Positions 9,001 through 40,500 of a DNA stretch of 64,000 bases are shown here, piece by piece. The stretch comes from Pecten maximus (taxonomy: Eukaryota). The position numbers were made by a program. The stretch spans positions 40,114,001 to 40,178,000 of the forward strand of contig NC_047016.1 in the NCBI RefSeq assembly GCF_902652985.1, given 5' to 3'. Numbering within the stretch: the first letter of the stretch is position 1; every line of letters begins with the position of its first letter.

Positions 9001-12000
9001 AAGTGATATCACCTATTCGAATAGGTGATATCACTTAATGAAACGAATAGGTGATATCACCAATTCATTTTTCAAATAAGTGATATCACCTATTCGAATA
9101 GGTGATATCACCCATTCGAATAGGTGATATCACTTAATGAAACGAATAGGTGATATCACTTATTCGAATAGGTGATATCACTCATTCGAATAGGTGATAT
9201 CACCAATTGGAATAGGTGATATCACTTAAAAATATTCTTAAGTGATATCACATATTTGAATAGGTGATATCACCCATTCGAATAGGTGATATCACTTATA
9301 AAATTCTTAAGTGATATCATCTATTCGAATGAGTGATATCACCTATACGAATAGGTGATATCACTTATGAAATTTTATAAGTGATATCACCTATTCGAAT
9401 TGGTGATATCACCTATTCGAATGAGTGATATCACCTATTCAATCAGTGATATCACCTATTCGAATAGGTGATATCACCAATTCATTTTTCAAATAAGTGA
9501 TATCGACTATTCGTTTCATTAAGTGATATCACCTATTCGAATGAGTGATATCACCTATTCGTTTCAATAAGTGATATCACCTATTCGAATGAGTGATATC
9601 ACCTATTCGAATGGGTGATATCACTTAATGAAACGAATAGGTGATATCACTTATTCGAATAGGTGATATCACTCATTCGAATAGGTGATATCACTTTAAA
9701 AAGTTCTTAAGTGATATCACCTATTTGAATAGGTGATATCACTCATTTGAATAGGTGATATCACCAAATGGGAATAAATAGTAAAACGGCGCCCCATAGA
9801 TATCACCTGTTCGAATAGGTGATATCACTTAAGAATATTTTTAAGTGATATCACCTATTCCAATTGGTGATATCAACTATTCGAATGAGTGATATCACCT
9901 ATTCGAATGAGTGATATCGCCTATTCGTTTCATTAAGTGATATCACCTATTCGAATGGGTGATATCATCTATTCGAATGGGTGATATCACTTATTTGAAA
10001 AATGAATTGGTGATATCACCTATTCGAATAGGTTATATCACTGACTGAATAGGTGATATCACTGATTGAATAGGTGATATCACCAAATGGGAATAAATAG
10101 TAAAACGGCGCCCCATAATGGCGGCAATCATGGATTAGGCCTATGGACTGACCAGAAAAATATCAACATTTGGTAAGGACCATCTCGGGATCATTTCAGG
10201 TAAGGTAGAACTTGAGAAGAAGTTTGAAATAAGTGTTGTTCAGGAAATTGAAAACTATGATTGCGCAAGCATGTTACAAAATGGCAACCGTGTCTGCCAT
10301 GTTTAGATTTTACGAGGCTGAAAAATAGCAACACTTTGTTGGCTACCCTTTCTAATCATCCTCACCGATTTCCAGCTCTATGGCACCAGTGTAAGAAGCG
10401 AAGTATAAAATGCGTTATTCATTTCAAGATGGCTGCCTCGGACCTACCCGAAAAATAACAATACTTAGATCTAGTCAGGGCCATCTCGGGAACATTCCAG
10501 GAAAGTTTCAGCTTTCAGTTCAGTGGAACTCGAGAAGTTTGAAATGTGAAAACGGACGGCGCATGACGACGGACGAAGTACGATTGCTATAAAATGGTCC
10601 CCCAAGAAATAAGAACAAGAGTATAAGAAATATAATGTTAAAGTTTATTTAGATAAAACAGTGTGGCACTAGTGATACTTGCAATTGTTAAAAAATCATA
10701 ACAGCTTTAATTATAGAACAATATAACAGTGTTGCTAAGTGACATTATAGAACCAAATGTGCTGATAATATACAAACACAACATAAGAATATGACAATAA
10801 ACAAACAATATTACGATAAACAAACAACATAACAATATGACAACATTATAAATACAACAATACAAAATGACATAGAAACACGCCGAAACAATGACAATAT
10901 ACAAACAATATATGATATACAAACACATTAATACAACAATATGACAACATGCAAACACAGCATCACACATTTGTGCTGATCAAACACTAATCAATTATAC
11001 GTAGCACTAACGTCTATGGATATCGGAATTACCGAGATTAACCTATCACATTATCAGTCTATCACACGCCCCTCCAGAGAATGCTGTAGTTGGTCTATCA
11101 CACGCCCCTCCAGAGAATGCTGTAGTTGGTCGTAGACATCCTGGCTAGCTCGTCAGTCTCCACGGTCCTTCCCGATGTGGCTGGCATCTCCAAGTCTGGG
11201 TCTCCTCCCAGGGAAGTGAGGACAAGGGCAGATAACTCCTGGACCTGGCGATTCTTCGTGGATCGGTACTGGTCAAACATCCTGCGGACACCCTGGATGA
11301 TGGACTTGCGGGTCAGTAGGTGGAGAACAAGGCTGTGGGCATCGTCAAGTGTGGATAGGAAAAGTTGTCGGTCAAGGCGGGTCAACTGGTCATCTGGAAT
11401 AAAAGATTAAATACATGTATATGTTACTATGTTCAAAGACATTATTCAAGATAAGATCTATCGCACATTGTCCAATAAAAAAAAAAAAATAGAAACTGGA
11501 CATAAGAGTTACGACCGGAAATAAACACACAAGTGTTGATCCCTTTAAAAAAGTCTATATACCAGAAAAAAACCATTTGATTTATATTGAAATGATACAG
11601 TATAGAAATAATCTATTTATTTAGCATTTCTTTGTTGGTATGAAAAACGAACTTTCAACAATTTTAATTTAAACACCTTAAGAATGTGGAATTACGATTC
11701 ATTCTAAATATTTGGTTTGTACATGTATGGTGGAAGAACTTCCTAACTTGTTATTACATTATTACATATTTCATCACAATGTATGGATGGTTTTATTGAG
11801 AAACTAACTGAATTAAAAATAATAAGATAGGATATTTACCCTAACAATACAATTATCCTGAAGTGGGTTTGAGCAATTTAATTAAAGTTATTAAAAAGCG
11901 TTGAAAAAAATGAAGAAAAAATATAAGTTTGATATTGTGCTTTCTAAGAATTAATAATGTTTACATCAAAATAATAGCTTTTTTATCTTAACAATACATA

Positions 12001-37500: not shown

Positions 37501-40500
37501 TCCATCATCCAGGGTGTTCGCAGGATGTTTGACCAGTACCGATCCACCAAGAACCGTCAGGTCCAGGAGTTATCTGCCCTTGTCCTCACTTCCCTGGGAG
37601 GAGACCCAGACTTGGAGATGCCAGCCACATCGGGAAGGACCGTGGAGACTGACGAGCTAGCCAGGATGTCTACGACCAACTACAGCATTCTCTGGAGGGG
37701 CGTGTGATAGACTGATAATGTGATAGTTTAATCTCGGTAATTCCTGTGTCCTTGGACTAGTGCTAATAAGTGACTATATTTTGCTATTTCTTTTATAAGG
37801 AGACGAATTAATATAAGCTTTAGGCTTGTTTTCGAATTCTTACATTCATGTAATGTGTACAACTTTGCATTTGCAATGTGTTTGTATATTGTAACACAGT
37901 ATTTGTATATTGTAACATTGTATTGTTGTGTTTGTATATTGTAACACAGTATTTGTATATTGTAACACAGTATTTGTATATTGTAACATTGTATTGTTGT
38001 GTTTGTATATTGTAACACAGTATTTGTATATTGTAACACAGTATTTGTATATTGTAACATTGTATTGTTGTGTTTGTATATTGTAACACAGTATTTGTAT
38101 ATTGTAACATTGTATTGTTGTGTTTGTATATTGTAACATTGTATTGTTGTGTTTGTATATTGTAACATTGTATTGTTGTGTATGTATATTGTAACATTGT
38201 ATTGTTGTGTTTGTATATTGTAACACAGTATTTGTATATTGTAACATTGTATTGTTGTGTTTGTATATTGTAACACAGTATTTGTATATTGTAACACAGT
38301 ATTTGTATATTGTAACATTGTATTGTTGTGTTTGTATATTGTAACACAGTATTTGTATATTGTAACACAGTATTTGTATATTGTAACATTGTATTGTTGT
38401 GTTTGTATATTGTAACATTGTATTGTTGTGTTTGTATATTGTAACATTGTATTGTTGTGTTTGTATATTGTAACATTGTATTGTTGTGTATGTATATTGT
38501 AACATTGTATTGTTGTGTTTGTATATTGTAACACTGTATTGTTTTGTTTGTATATTGTAACATTGTATTGTTTTGTTCGTATATTGTAACATTGTATTAT
38601 TTTGTTCCTATATTGTAACATGGTATTTTTGTGTTTGTATATTGTAACATTGTATTTTTGTTATCATGTTGTTATTATTTTGTTCAATCTGGTTATCTAT
38701 GTATTATTGTCCATGTGATTCATATGATTTTATGTAAATCAGTCTTTAACATGAATCTCCAGTGCTAAATTGTTTTATTTAAATAAATATTAATATTACA
38801 TCATAATAATTTGTTGGGTTTTTTTTTTCTTTATTTCCGGGAGCCATGTACTTACAGGCCATAGCAAATATCTATTTGTTGACAAAATACAGATATTCAT
38901 TTCTAAATAAGAAATTTATATTTGTGAATGAGAGATATTTGTATTCATATATAAATATCTGCATTTAGATTGAGTTATCTGTAACTATTAAATAAAAAGA
39001 TATATTATATCTGTATCGCATTCGAATATCGAAGATATCTGTATTTTAGACAACGCCAATATCTGTCTGTTACACTCGACTATCCCCACTGGTACAATGC
39101 AATCCATTAAAATATTAACTTAATTGAAGATAGATATACATATTCATGATAATATTATTAAAACCATATACATTGCTTGTATTTGACATGAGACTTGTAA
39201 AATGTCTACCATTCATCCTGTGAAATCTTCTGTATGAGGCATCAGAATATCACTGCCATTTAGTTGTTACTGACGAAGCAACAAAGGACTACGACGCCGG
39301 TCATTGTACGTGAAAAATTATGATTTGACCTTTTTTCTTTTTTTTTTTTGGTGTGTGATAGGATCGAGTCGTTGTGGTTTGTATATAGTGCAATATAACT
39401 TGTTATTATCGCCTATCAAGTATTTTGAAAGGAAAGAGAGAGGAAATGTGAAAGTTGTCACTCAGCTGACAAATGATATGCTTTTTGGCTCAGATGCTAG
39501 ATCTGTGGATTATCATGCAGATACCCGGGTTCGAATCTTCTTCTTACATATTCTTTCACAGGTGATTTTGTTGCAAATTGTAAGCAAATCGTACTCCGAC
39601 TACAAAAAATTGTTAAATCGTAGAGAAATAATGTTAGACAGAAGACTGATCCCTGCGATACTCCTGAGGTTATTTTTGTCCAAACGGAAGTTACACTCCA
39701 CTAACACTGGTTGTAGAACAAGACTCGTCAAGTGGTATTGGTATTTCGACATAGTTTGATCATATTTCTCAGAAGTGAACTATTTATTTTTAGTGCTTTG
39801 ACTAAGATTGACAGGCGACATATCTGACCTGAATGCACTGTATCCGTTCAACTTCCGGTAATATCAATAATTCTTCCGTTAATTACATATATACATACAG
39901 ATCTCAATATCCTATATTGGGATACATAATTCATATATACGTTCAAAAATAAACCAAAAGTCCAATCTTCCTATGAAATGTATCTTGATATTAAAGATTT
40001 ACACAGAAATTCGAAAATAAACAACAACAACAACAACAACAAAACAAAGAGACAACAACAAAAACGTAAAATATGGATTTTAAATATGAAAATCTTAACA
40101 AATGCATCCATATTTTATATATATATATATATAAAAGAGCATGTTCTATCAGCCACATTACACAATGAGATAATATGATATCGTGATGAACACTTTCACT
40201 TTATACGATTGCACGATTTAATGTATTGGGACGAAACTGCATCTGAGGTATACTTCATGTATTGATGAGCGAATTTTTATTAAGCGTATGCAAAAGTGTA
40301 ATTGTTACAATTAAATATACACCAATATTATGTATTGCTACATGTATGCATATGTATGGAAGAAAATAAAAAATTTCAAAAAAAAAAAAAAAAAAAATGC
40401 ATCCATATTTGGTGTCATTTCCGCAATGATTTATACATATAATATATCTATGACAAGTCGCACATTATACTGCTTTAAGAACAACCATTGACGAATTGAA

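What the first reader, a model, noticed from the sequence alone, without database searches (positions are those of the whole stretch)
11000..39900. Concerted evolution restricted to exons and promoter arrays, with mosaic ancestry
Seen: CDS and arrays are near-identical but introns differ in length (608, 610, 639, 468, 539 bp) and only patchily align; 3' UTRs differ greatly. Relationships are mosaic: copies 1/2 share the array-to-CCAAT spacer with copies 4/5 but share the stop-region duplication with copy 3. Inference: old duplications continually homogenised by gene conversion over the functional parts, helped by the inverted arrangement.
Basis: partly seen in the sequence, partly recalled or inferred. 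Interest (0 to 1): 0.65.

Follow-up and report, generated by a model that had tools for sequence, protein, structure and literature searches.

The report
Scallop gene cluster with homogenised exons
Five neighbouring copies of a small, uncharacterised mollusc gene in the king scallop have nearly identical exons but very different introns, which is a clean but ordinary case of gene copies overwriting short stretches of one another.

Summary
The window is Pecten maximus. It holds five copies of a two-exon, 131-codon gene. c1-c3 lie on the minus strand and c4-c5 on the plus strand. Each copy has a 7-9 unit 71-bp array, two CCAAT boxes and a TATA box.

The pattern is layered, though:
- **c1/c2** are a recent 4.5-kb whole-unit tandem duplication, 99.3% identical with introns included.
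- **c4/c5** still align along about 90% of the intron.
- **The three old lineages** (c1/2, c3, c4/5) are the only ones showing the claimed contrast. Synonymous differences are 3-6 of 93 sites, against 18-29% mismatch in the few alignable intron patches (P 3e-4 to 1.5e-10).

Low divergence covers the 5'UTR, both exons and the arrays. It does not cover the core promoter (12-23%) or the 3'UTR.

Short-tract interlocus gene conversion plus purifying selection is the best explanation.

Real mosaicism shows instead as uneven divergence within c4-c5. No benefit of the inverted arrangement is seen.

This is a known kind of evolution (KRTAP1, yeast duplicates, Amy). The protein's function is unknown.

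The parts
12332..12874 (-). c1: 71-bp upstream array, 7 full units plus a distal partial unit
   Evidence: TRF gives 7.6 copies at 94% matches. Units were put in register. 7 exact CCTTTGATCTT sites.
12102..12331 (-). c1: spacer, two CCAAT boxes, TATA box (TATATAAG) and 5'UTR
   Evidence: Five-copy alignment. TSS position is inferred from the TATA box and was not measured.
12002..12101 (-). c1 exon 1: ATG plus 33 codons plus 1 nt
   Evidence: Matches orthologue residues 1-33 by tblastn.
11394..12001 (-). c1 intron, 608 bp, GT..AG, phase 1
11098..11393 (-). c1 exon 2, 296 nt including the TGA stop
   Evidence: Its translation is 100% identical to P. maximus LOC117322063.
11057..11131 (-). c1: 36-bp in-frame unit spanning the stop codon, 2 copies
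   Evidence: Reads TNYSILWRGV** twice.
16812..17354 (-). c2: 71-bp array
   Evidence: TRF gives 7.6 copies at 95% matches. Unit-by-unit orthology with c1: identity 0.986 at the same position against 0.940 at other positions.
16482..16581 (-). c2 exon 1
15872..16481 (-). c2 intron, 610 bp
   Evidence: 99.5% identical to the c1 intron.
15576..15871 (-). c2 exon 2
15535..15609 (-). c2: 36-bp stop-region unit, 2 copies
22970..23451 (-). c3: 71-bp array, 6 full units plus a distal partial unit
   Evidence: TRF gives 6.8 copies.
22626..22725 (-). c3 exon 1 (carries Q14K)
21987..22625 (-). c3 intron, 639 bp
   Evidence: Collinear patches are about 61% identical to c5 and about 62% to c4.
21691..21986 (-). 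c3 exon 2 (carries T38I and L46V)
   Evidence: Equals NCBI isoform X2, P0004.
21578..21723 (-). c3: 36-bp stop-region unit, 4 copies
   Evidence: Reads TNYSILWRGV** four times.
27847..28402 (+). c4: 71-bp array
   Evidence: TRF gives 7.8 copies.
28626..28725 (+). c4 exon 1
28726..29193 (+). c4 intron, 468 bp
29194..29489 (+). c4 exon 2 (carries L55P and 5 unique synonymous changes)
   Evidence: Equals LOC117322064, P0003.
35927..36549 (+). c5: 71-bp array, the longest and most heterogeneous
   Evidence: TRF gives 8.7 copies at 90% matches. Within-array unit identity is 0.895.
36773..36872 (+). c5 exon 1
36873..37411 (+). c5 intron, 539 bp
   Evidence: Aligns with the c4 intron: 41 mismatches in 399 ungapped patch columns, or 67 in 443 in a global alignment.
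37412..37707 (+). c5 exon 2
8964..13441 (.). First unit of the 4,478-bp tandem duplication that carries c1
   Evidence: 8964-13448 against 13442-17929 is 99.31% identical over 4491 columns, with 31 differing columns. The junction shows about 7 bp of microhomology.
13442..17929 (.). Second unit of the tandem duplication, carrying c2
37877..38661 (+). c5: TG-rich minisatellite 3' of the gene. Related repeats lie at 29599-29838 (c4), 21207-21457 (c3) and about 10700-10990 (c1).
   Evidence: Cross-matches between the 3' flanks are 64-70% identical.

Best explanation
This is a 27-kb cluster of five paralogues of a mollusc-specific, uncharacterised 131-residue protein gene in Pecten maximus. It was built in layers.

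Three old lineages (c1/2, c3, c4/5) have introns, core promoters, 3'UTRs and outer flanks that have drifted almost beyond alignment.

On top of these lie two younger events:
- c4/c5 arose by a whole-unit duplication or a whole-unit conversion.
- c1/c2 arose by a very recent microhomology-joined 4.5-kb tandem duplication.

Between the old lineages, three parts have been overwritten repeatedly by short-tract (about 100-500 bp) interlocus gene conversion: the 5'UTR with exon 1, exon 2, and the 71-bp upstream arrays. Purifying selection keeps those parts similar enough to go on pairing. Diverged introns and flanks stop the tracts.

Shown here: the divergence contrasts and their boundaries. Inferred: conversion as the process, tract lengths, and the role of selection.
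For: 1. Synonymous sites against intron, deep pairs. Synonymous differences are 5, 4, 6 and 3 of 93 sites for c1-c3, c1-c5, c3-c4 and c3-c5. Ungapped collinear intron patches show 14/77, 49/208, 78/275 and 125/432 mismatches. Binomial P = 3e-4 to 1.5e-10. These patches are the best-preserved part of the introns. The c1-c4 intron alignment scores no better than shuffles: 17.0 against a mean of 15.0 and a maximum of 21.0 in 20 shuffles.

2. Internal control. In c4-c5 synonymous sites differ at 8 of 93. The intron differs at 41/399 (patches) or 67/443 (global), so dS/K_intron is 0.54-0.83. Applying that ratio to the four deep pairs still predicts 9.7-23 synonymous differences against 3-6 observed. 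P is 2.8e-5 to 0.067 with the stricter ratio, and 3 of 4 pairs fall below 0.003. Synonymous constraint alone therefore does not explain the pattern.

3. Sharp boundaries. The mean mismatch of the five deep pairs is 1-4.5% from -54 to +105 and 0-4.5% across exon 2. It is 32% just inside the intron, 48% at 60-21 nt before exon 2, 15-23% in the promoter from -232 to -94, and 29-51% from 24 nt past the stop.

4. Arrays. Using 33 of 41 units, within-array identity (0.895-0.949) equals between-array identity (0.903-0.946). There is no array-specific fixed state. Three unit positions are polymorphic in at least 3 of the 4 lineage arrays.

5. Excess change in arrays since the c1/c2 split. 12 of 543 array nt differ against 10 substitutions in 3948 nt elsewhere (odds ratio 8.9, P = 1.8e-6). 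9 of the 12 lie in the three distal units.

6. c4-c5 is itself a patchwork. Non-coding segments run from 1/54, 3/99 and 3/58 up to 64/385, 18/79 and 19/88 (chi-square 31.4, 5 df, P = 7.7e-6).

7. Homology among lineages, c4-c5 included, stops within about 5 nt of the same phase of the distal array unit. Nothing is alignable in the next 1 kb. This is expected if tracts cannot leave the island of homology.

8. Scallop paralogues cluster by species.
Against: - Topological evidence for exchange is weak. c4+c5 is recovered in 0 of 4 non-intron segment trees, but AU tests on those segments do not reject it (p 0.12-0.19).
- A PHI-like test is marginal in the 5' block (P 0.04 and 0.083) and not significant in the 3' block.
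- Tajima's relative-rate test of c4 against c5 gives 7 against 2, p = 0.096.
- Counts of synonymous differences are small (2-8).
- GC3 of 0.67-0.70, against 0.53 and 0.39 in two other coding stretches of the window, is compatible with codon selection lowering dS.
- The control pair c4-c5 is itself heterogeneous, so its ratio is rough.
- The groupings in the tests were chosen after seeing the data.
- Clustering of paralogues by species is equally expected from independent young duplications.
- No DNA of another scallop could be compared.
- The assembly was polished with short reads (PMC7191990, passage in section 7). That could erase a few copy-specific differences in the most similar stretches.
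Confidence: 0.6

Rival explanations
1. The exons are homogenised by conversion templated on cDNA (reverse-transcribed mRNA) rather than on genomic DNA. The arrays are kept alike by a separate DNA-level process.
For: Low divergence begins near the inferred transcription start (-54) and changes abruptly at both splice sites. The promoter between the array and the TATA box is 15-23% diverged. The same argument (dS far below the intron rate, promoters diverged) was used to propose cDNA donors for fungal ribosomal-protein duplicates (PMC6993855, passages in sections 10 and 16). High GC3 would fit a highly expressed gene.
Against: - The transcribed 3'UTR is not homogenised: 29-51% mismatch from 24 nt past the stop.
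- Low divergence runs into the intron. c3 matches c4/c5 at 23 of the first 24 intron nt. c4 and c5 differ at 3 of the first 58.
- The untranscribed arrays show the same lack of lineage sorting.
- A cDNA tract crossing the exon junction would delete the intron, yet all five copies keep it.
Confidence: 0.12
2. There is no sequence exchange. The copies are old, and exons, 5'UTR and arrays are alike only because purifying selection (protein, codon usage, factor-binding sites) holds nearly every position.
For: The protein is strongly conserved: 79-85% identity between scallop genera and 84 invariant columns of 132. dN is 0-0.014. GC3 is 0.67-0.70. Most of the 71 unit positions are at least 90% conserved.
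Against: - c4 carries 5 unique synonymous changes, and c4-c5 dS is 0.54-0.83 of the intron rate. In the deep pairs the ratio is 0.09-0.27. Constraint alone predicts one constant ratio.
- The spacer is 3% diverged in c4-c5 but about 15% in the deep pairs, so it is not tightly constrained.
- The arrays changed about 9 times faster than their surroundings since the c1/c2 split.
Confidence: 0.1
3. All duplications are young, of the age given by dS at or below 0.09. Introns and flanks have been scrambled unusually fast by indels, repeat turnover and transposon insertion.
For: The introns are 22-28% GC and rich in indels: 121 gap columns in the c4-c5 alignment. Retroelement fragments and minisatellites lie between the copies. 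Paralogues cluster by species. Bivalve genomes are very polymorphic: 1.71% heterozygosity in this species (PMC7191990, passage).
Against: Indels do not explain 18-29% base mismatch inside ungapped collinear intron patches, against 3-6.5% at synonymous sites. The c4-c5 introns show what about 0.1 substitutions per site looks like here, and they remain alignable over about 90% of their length.
Confidence: 0.1
4. Part of the pattern is an assembly artefact. c1/c2 could be two haplotypes laid in tandem, or short-read polishing could have flattened differences between copies.
For: c1 and c2 differ by 0.25% outside the array, which is less than the reported heterozygosity of 1.71%. The assembly was polished with freebayes (PMC7191990, passages in section 7).
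Against: The c1/c2 junction is continuous sequence with about 7 bp of microhomology and no gap. The only N run lies at 58080-58253. Polishing cannot create 97-99% identity from sequences as diverged as the introns. NCBI models exist for several copies.
Confidence: 0.06

Closest known systems
Mammalian KRTAP1 tandem genes (bioRxiv 10.1101/282418; abstract read)
   Same: [quoted passage not shown] The authors explain it by short-tract gene conversion coupled with selection, after excluding purifying selection, codon adaptation and reverse transcription.
   Different: Here an intron splits the homogenised region into two islands. The 5'UTR and an upstream tandem array are also kept alike. Cross-species DNA, which is the core of the KRTAP1 evidence, could not be examined.
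Yeast whole-genome-duplication paralogues and fungal ribosomal-protein duplicates (PMC3924837, passage in section 11; PMC6993855, passages in sections 10 and 16)
   Same: Concerted evolution is restricted to coding sequence and homology is almost undetectable in non-coding DNA. dS is far below the intron rate. The review's explanation is that purifying selection keeps coding parts similar, which keeps conversion efficient.
   Different: Those pairs are dispersed, not clustered. A cDNA donor is favoured for the ribosomal genes. Here untranscribed arrays are also kept alike and the 3'UTR is not.
Drosophila Amy duplicates (PMC2588116, passage in section 8) and Arabidopsis halleri HMA4 triplicate (bioRxiv 10.1101/2025.10.29.685298; abstract read)
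   Same: Linked paralogues show long-term interlocus conversion. Divergence rises towards the block edges (Amy). Conversion rates vary within the gene and give a mosaic of divergence (HMA4).
   Different: This is a different gene family and phylum. The copy number here is five, in both orientations. Those cases rest on population and cross-species data that I could not obtain.
Multimerised TCF/LEF (HMG-site) Wnt reporters and Wnt-responsive modules (PMC4154663, passages; the TOPflash reporter design is recalled from memory, not from a call)
   Same: Each 71-bp unit ends in CCTTTGATCTT, the 11-mer given as the LEF-1 HMG site in PMC4154663 (section 14). There are 34 exact copies, all in the five arrays, against 0.06 expected.
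   Different: This is a resemblance of sequence only. I did not notice the GC-rich Helper motif (GCCGCCR) in the units printed, but I ran no pattern search for it. PMC4154663 reports that HMG sites alone are weak in flies. Nothing here tests binding or Wnt response.

Membership tests
Concerted evolution of linked paralogues by interlocus gene conversion | Paralogue divergence at neutral coding sites is far below that of linked non-coding DNA | tested here: met
   Met for the four deep pairs with alignable intron patches: 3-6 of 93 synonymous sites against 18-29% intron mismatch, P 3e-4 to 1.5e-10. It still holds after scaling by the c4-c5 ratio. Not met for c1-c2 (everything 99.3% identical). 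Not clearly met for c4-c5 (8/93 against 41/399, P = 0.37).
Concerted evolution of linked paralogues by interlocus gene conversion | Paralogues within a species are more alike than orthologues between species, although the duplication predates the species split | tested here: inconclusive
   Proteins cluster by species: support 93/92-93 for P. maximus and 92-94/90 for Y. balloti. Whether the duplication predates the split cannot be told without other scallop genomes. A clade of c3 with Y. balloti 792/794 is rejected (p-AU 0.0004).
Concerted evolution of linked paralogues by interlocus gene conversion | Detectable conversion tracts or phylogenetic incongruence along the sequence | tested here: inconclusive
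   Segment trees differ. The intron gives (c4,c5) at 100/99, and 0 of 4 other segments recover it. AU tests on those segments do not reject it (p 0.12-0.19). The PHI-like test gives P 0.04 and 0.083 in the 5' block and is not significant in the 3' block. Heterogeneity of divergence within c4-c5 is significant (P = 7.7e-6).
Concerted evolution of linked paralogues by interlocus gene conversion | Polymorphisms shared between paralogues in a population | not testable with these tools
   Only one assembly is in hand. Within it, three unit positions are polymorphic in at least 3 of 4 lineage arrays, which is only an analogue of this feature.
Recent segmental (tandem) duplication | Uniform near-identity across gene, intron and flanks, with a definable junction | tested here: met
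   Met for c1/c2 only: 99.31% over 4491 columns including satellite, retroelement fragment and intron. The junction has about 7 bp of microhomology at 13442-13448.
Any named protein family (Pfam, PDB) | Significant match to a curated family model or a solved structure | tested here: not met
   - Pfam: 0 families for exon 1 and exon 2 translations. No match at or above the cut-off for 10 relatives or for 19 alignment members.
- PDB: 1 chance-level hit at E = 1.3 and 0 hits with the profile.
- Atlas: best score 0.82, which is noise level.
- Relatives are all "uncharacterized" mollusc proteins.
TCF/LEF-dependent Wnt-responsive cis-regulatory module | Clustered HMG sites (CTTTGAT core) | tested here: met
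   34 exact CCTTTGATCTT sites, 6-7 per array, against 0.06 expected by chance. They are copies of one repeat unit and so are not independent.
TCF/LEF-dependent Wnt-responsive cis-regulatory module | TCF binding and beta-catenin-dependent activation, with nearby Helper sites for C-clamp TCFs | not tested
   No binding or expression data are available. I did not notice GCCGCCR in the units printed, but I ran no pattern search for it.

The most novel reading that the evidence does not exclude
The 71-bp arrays are natural multimerised TCF/LEF response elements, with 6-7 perfect CCTTTGATCTT sites per gene and 34 in the cluster. They would make this mollusc-only orphan gene family a dosage-amplified direct output of Wnt/beta-catenin signalling. 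Conversion would keep arrays and exons uniform, while the CCAAT-to-TATA interval is left free, or is selected, to differ. TATA variants are TATATAAG, TATAAAAC, CATAAAAC and TGTATAAC, and c4-c5 diverge 23% there against 2-3% on either side. The copies would then share inducibility and product but differ in basal promoter strength.
Probability: 0.08. Interest if true: 0.6.

Novelty: new member of a known kind. Interest (0 to 1): 0.33.

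Why it matters
This is a compact, well-bounded example in a bivalve of exon-limited homogenisation among clustered paralogues. One locus carries its own calibration pairs: c1/c2 is very young and c4/c5 is intermediate.

It warns that dS-based dating of bivalve tandem duplicates can underestimate their age by several-fold, and that paralogues clustering by species need not be young.

It also flags three practical points:
- an uncharacterised mollusc-wide protein family;
- a striking tandem enhancer-like array worth a reporter assay;
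- an NCBI gene model (isoform X3) that splices across two copies.

It does not change what is known about how concerted evolution works.

Tried and rejected
PROTEIN IDENTITY
- Pfam on the exon translations, on 10 relatives and on 19 alignment members: nothing at or above the cut-offs.
- PDB by sequence and by profile: nothing.
- ESM Atlas. The exon-2 translation is not held. The stored Mizuhopecten homologue gave a best score of 0.82, which is noise level, and no structure search was possible.
- Search for longer or fused relatives: none, which the tool itself calls weak evidence.
- Cluster-member look-up: the database was switched off, so the query could not be made.
- Structure prediction was not obtained. 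The tool was not ready. The one accepted job failed. No fold search was possible.

LITERATURE
- No paper held any of 12 LOC identifiers of this gene and its homologues.

PROMOTER AND RNA
- Heat-shock element pattern: 1 match, in the c5 intron, against 0.81 expected. This is not a classic heat-shock promoter.
- Rfam and tRNA scans of the window: 0 hits each.

EVOLUTION
- I considered c3 being orthologous to the Y. balloti 792/794 paralogues, because they share K14 and I38. The protein data reject that clade (p-AU 0.0004).
- I considered a conversion tract between the head-to-head neighbours c3 and c4 in the core promoter, from shared sites at -117, -95 and -86. Those sites are interleaved with sites of the opposite pattern at -132, -115 and -83. 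In addition, about 13 of the 18 c4-c5 differences there are singletons (my tally of the site list). No clean tract exists.
- I considered unequal crossing-over between the 22-bp satellites as the origin of c1/c2. The right-hand unit ends in unique sequence with microhomology and not in satellite, so I dropped the idea.
- My first array tally unintentionally dropped two full units. It was redone.

Full report
**What is there**

The translation of the larger exon is 100% identical to Pecten maximus "uncharacterized protein LOC117322063". It is 98-99% identical to two further P. maximus records: isoform X2 of that locus and LOC117322064. So the window is king-scallop DNA.

Exon probes match five places and no more. 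tblastn with two orthologues finds the same five.

Each copy has:
- a 100-nt first coding exon;
- a phase-1 GT..AG intron;
- a 296-nt second exon;
- 131 codons.

c1, c2 and c3 are on the minus strand. c4 and c5 are on the plus strand. c3 and c4 are therefore head to head, 4.4 kb apart.

Upstream of each ATG lie a roughly 60-nt leader, a TATA box, two CCAAT boxes, a spacer, and 7-9 units of a 71-bp tandem repeat.

Exons were searched one by one. Full-length comparisons used the database proteins that one search returned.

**Check of the observation**

Coding sequences differ at 0-3 of 100 nt in exon 1 and 1-7 of 296 nt in exon 2. 14 of 130 whole codons vary. dN is 0-0.014 and dS is 0.022-0.091.

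The 36-bp unit that spans the stop codon occurs 2, 2, 4, 1 and 1 times.

c3 alone has extra bases in the spacer, giving 252 nt from array to ATG against 230 nt in the others.

Three statements need qualifying:
- The arrays are alike but not near-identical. Unit identity is 0.90-0.95.
- The proximal promoter is 11-20% diverged.
- The "patchy" introns describe only comparisons between the three lineages c1/2, c3 and c4/5.

**Two young layers**

*c1 and c2.* They sit in a 4,478-bp tandem duplication that is 99.31% identical over 4491 columns. It includes the intron, 1.1 kb of a 22-bp satellite and a retroelement fragment. The junction is continuous sequence with about 7 bp of microhomology. This pair says nothing about exon-restricted homogenisation.

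*c4 and c5.* They align along about 90% of the intron. Intron mismatch is 41/399 in local patches or 67/443 in a global alignment. Synonymous sites differ at 8 of 93. Synonymous sites in this gene therefore change at roughly 0.5-0.8 of the intron rate.

**The old lineages**

Between c1/2, c3 and c4/5 the introns are mostly unalignable:
- The c1-c4 alignment scores no better than shuffles.
- The other deep pairs keep collinear patches of 61-75% identity.
- Inside those patches, counting ungapped columns only, mismatch is 18-29%.
- Synonymous sites differ at only 3-6 of 93 (P 3e-4 to 1.5e-10).

Scaling by the c4-c5 ratio still predicts 9.7-23 synonymous differences. P is 2.8e-5 to 0.067 with the stricter ratio, and 3 of 4 pairs fall below 0.003. 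A constant constraint on synonymous sites cannot give a dS/intron ratio of 0.09-0.27 in deep pairs and 0.54-0.83 in the young pair. Exchange of sequence between copies can.

**Where the low divergence lies** (mean of the five deep pairs)

| Region | Mismatch |
|---|---|
| Promoter, -232 to -94 | 15-23% |
| -93 to -55 | 10% |
| Leader and exon 1, -54 to +105 | 1-4.5% |
| Just inside the intron | 32% |
| 60-21 nt before exon 2 | 48% |
| Exon 2 | 0-4.5% |
| First 20 nt after the last 36-bp unit | 9% |
| Beyond that | 29-51% |

The islands are therefore the 5'UTR with exon 1 (about 160 bp) and exon 2 (about 320 bp). The "promoter" as a whole is not one of them.

**Arrays** (33 of 41 units in register)

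Five distal partial units, one non-unit and two 73-bp units were left out.

- Mean identity within arrays is 0.895-0.949 and between arrays 0.903-0.946.
- No array has a fixed private state.
- Three positions are polymorphic in at least 3 of the 4 lineage arrays.
- Unit-by-unit orthology is visible only between c1 and c2 (0.986 against 0.940).
- Since the c1/c2 split the array has changed about 9 times faster than the rest of the unit: 12/543 against 10/3948, P = 1.8e-6. 9 of the 12 changes lie in the three distal units.

This is the only evidence here for very recent exchange. It could be exchange within an array as well as between arrays.

All arrays begin within about 5 nt of the same phase of the unit. 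Nothing upstream is alignable between any lineages, c4-c5 included. That fits an island of homology which conversion tracts cannot leave. It would also fit duplications that all broke at the array edge.

**Mosaic ancestry**

One is private to c3. The other splits c1c2c3 from c4c5. Both fit ((c1,c2),c3,(c4,c5)).

Of 32 parsimony-informative sites in the two blocks, 18 support c1+c2 and 6 support c4+c5. The remaining 8 are incompatible with that tree: 5 for c3+c4, 2 for c3+c5 and 1 for c1+c5. The c1+c5 site is at a CpG.

Segment trees give (c4,c5) at 100/99 for the intron and do not recover it in any of the four other segments. AU tests on those segments cannot reject it (p 0.12-0.19). The intron data reject the alternatives (p 0.0016).

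The clearer mosaic is in depth, not topology. Within c4-c5:
- The spacer (3/99), the leader (1/54) and the first 58 intron nt (3/58) are much less diverged.
- The CCAAT-TATA interval (18/79), the rest of the intron (64/385) and the 3' 90 nt (19/88) are much more diverged.
- Chi-square is 31.4 with P = 7.7e-6. The segments were chosen after inspection.

About 13 of the 18 core-promoter differences are singletons in one or other copy (my tally of the site list). That interval simply drifts at the intron rate (Fisher P = 0.20 against the rest of the intron), while its neighbours have been renewed.

**Inverted arrangement**

dS is 0.033-0.091 for the six deep pairs in opposite orientation and 0.056 for the two in the same orientation. 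Exchange evidently crosses orientation. No advantage of inversion is visible.

**What the gene is**

The protein has no Pfam family and no relative among solved structures.

A profile search of 1.84 billion representatives found 41 relatives at E <= 0.001, most of about 80-180 residues. Those with names come from oysters, abalone and a mussel, and all are "uncharacterized".

They share a conserved N-terminal region of about 95 residues, a variable linker and a conserved C-terminal tail with a nearly invariant arginine.

The family is multi-copy in Y. balloti, with 3 loci, and in Haliotis rufescens, with 3 listed loci.

Each 71-bp unit ends in CCTTTGATCTT, the LEF-1 HMG site as printed in PMC4154663 (section 14). 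All 34 exact matches in the window lie in the arrays. This is a lead, not a test.

No heat-shock element is present in the promoters.

Function remains unknown.

**Mechanism and rivals**

The best-supported reading is short-tract interlocus gene conversion acting on exons and arrays. Purifying selection keeps those parts similar enough to pair, and diverged introns and flanks end the tracts. This is the explanation given for yeast duplicates in PMC3924837 (section 11) and for KRTAP1 (10.1101/282418, abstract).

- *A cDNA donor*, as proposed for fungal ribosomal-protein genes (PMC6993855), would explain the splice-site boundaries. It would not explain the diverged 3'UTR, the intronic extension of similarity or the arrays.
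- *Selection alone* fails the ratio test.
- *Young duplications with scrambled introns* fail on base mismatch inside ungapped patches.
- *An assembly artefact* could concern only c1/c2.

**Limits**

- No scallop or other eukaryote genome collection was available. Synteny, orthologous introns and between-species dS therefore stayed unchecked.
- Counts of synonymous differences are small.
- Short-read polishing of the assembly (PMC7191990, section 7) may have removed a few copy-specific differences.

**Verdict**

It is overstated in scope for c1/c2, for the promoter, for "mosaic" and for the inverted arrangement. The phenomenon is of a known kind.

Noticed in passing
8645-10084 and 13472-14562: 1.1-1.4-kb arrays of a 22-bp unit made of two short palindromes (GGTGATATCACC and TATTCGAATA) flank the c1 and c2 units. 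The part of the array inside the c1/c2 duplication differs at only 1 of 1121 nt. Other tandem repeats with palindromic units lie at 52273-52420 and 53232-53488.
   Followed up: partly
exon 1 of c3 (22626-22725) with exon 2 of c1 or c2: NCBI isoform X3 of LOC117322063 (P0002) has K14, as c3's exon 1 does, but T38 and L46, as exon 2 of c1/c2 does. It is therefore a model spliced across two gene copies. NCBI files c1-c3 as one locus with three "isoforms".
   Followed up: partly
11029-11130 (c1) and 21571-21723 (c3), minus strand: The 36-bp stop-region unit is exactly 12 codons long. The 3'UTR therefore repeats, in frame, the conserved C-terminal decapeptide followed by two stop codons. TNYSILWRGV** is read 2 times in c1 and 4 times in c3.
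   Followed up: yes
c4: 29194-29489 and promoter around 28530-28545: c4 looks like the copy that is escaping. It has 6 private coding changes including L55P, at a position that is L in the other seven aligned scallop proteins and sits in the otherwise conserved HSLVLHLL stretch. Its TATA box is weakened to CATAAAAC.
   Followed up: partly
exon 2 of every copy, e.g. 11098-11410: Exon 2 is open on the antisense strand too, e.g. a 94-codon stop-free frame at 11126-11410 on the plus strand. This is probably a by-product of GC-rich codon usage and was not examined.
   Followed up: no
23997-26127: An 18-bp minisatellite (23997-24146 and 25757-26127, same unit and orientation) is interrupted by a decayed retroelement. 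That element has weak zf-RVT similarity at 24789-25277, below the Pfam cut-off, and a (CT)42 run at 25499-25583. Another weak RVT_1 fragment lies at 18893-19183.
   Followed up: partly
50186-50941 (+) and 633-1115 (-): Other genes are present in the window: a rhodopsin-family GPCR exon (7tm_1, E = 9.6e-26) and a palmitoyl-protein thioesterase exon (E = 2.8e-7).
   Followed up: no
58080-58253 and 58422-60395: The only N run of the window lies immediately before a 145-bp satellite of more than 10 units. It was left untouched.
   Followed up: no
c3 codons 14 and 38: c3's private residues K14 and I38 are also the states of two Y. balloti paralogues, P0006 and P0008. The protein tree nevertheless rejects a shared clade (p-AU 0.0004). 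This is either convergence or a faint remnant of an older paralogue type.
   Followed up: yes
1473-2235, 31509-32080, 33609-34159, 52660-53055: Several further clean tandem arrays are present, with units of 97, 68, 21 and 62 bp at 90-97% matches. The window is unusually rich in minisatellites.
   Followed up: no
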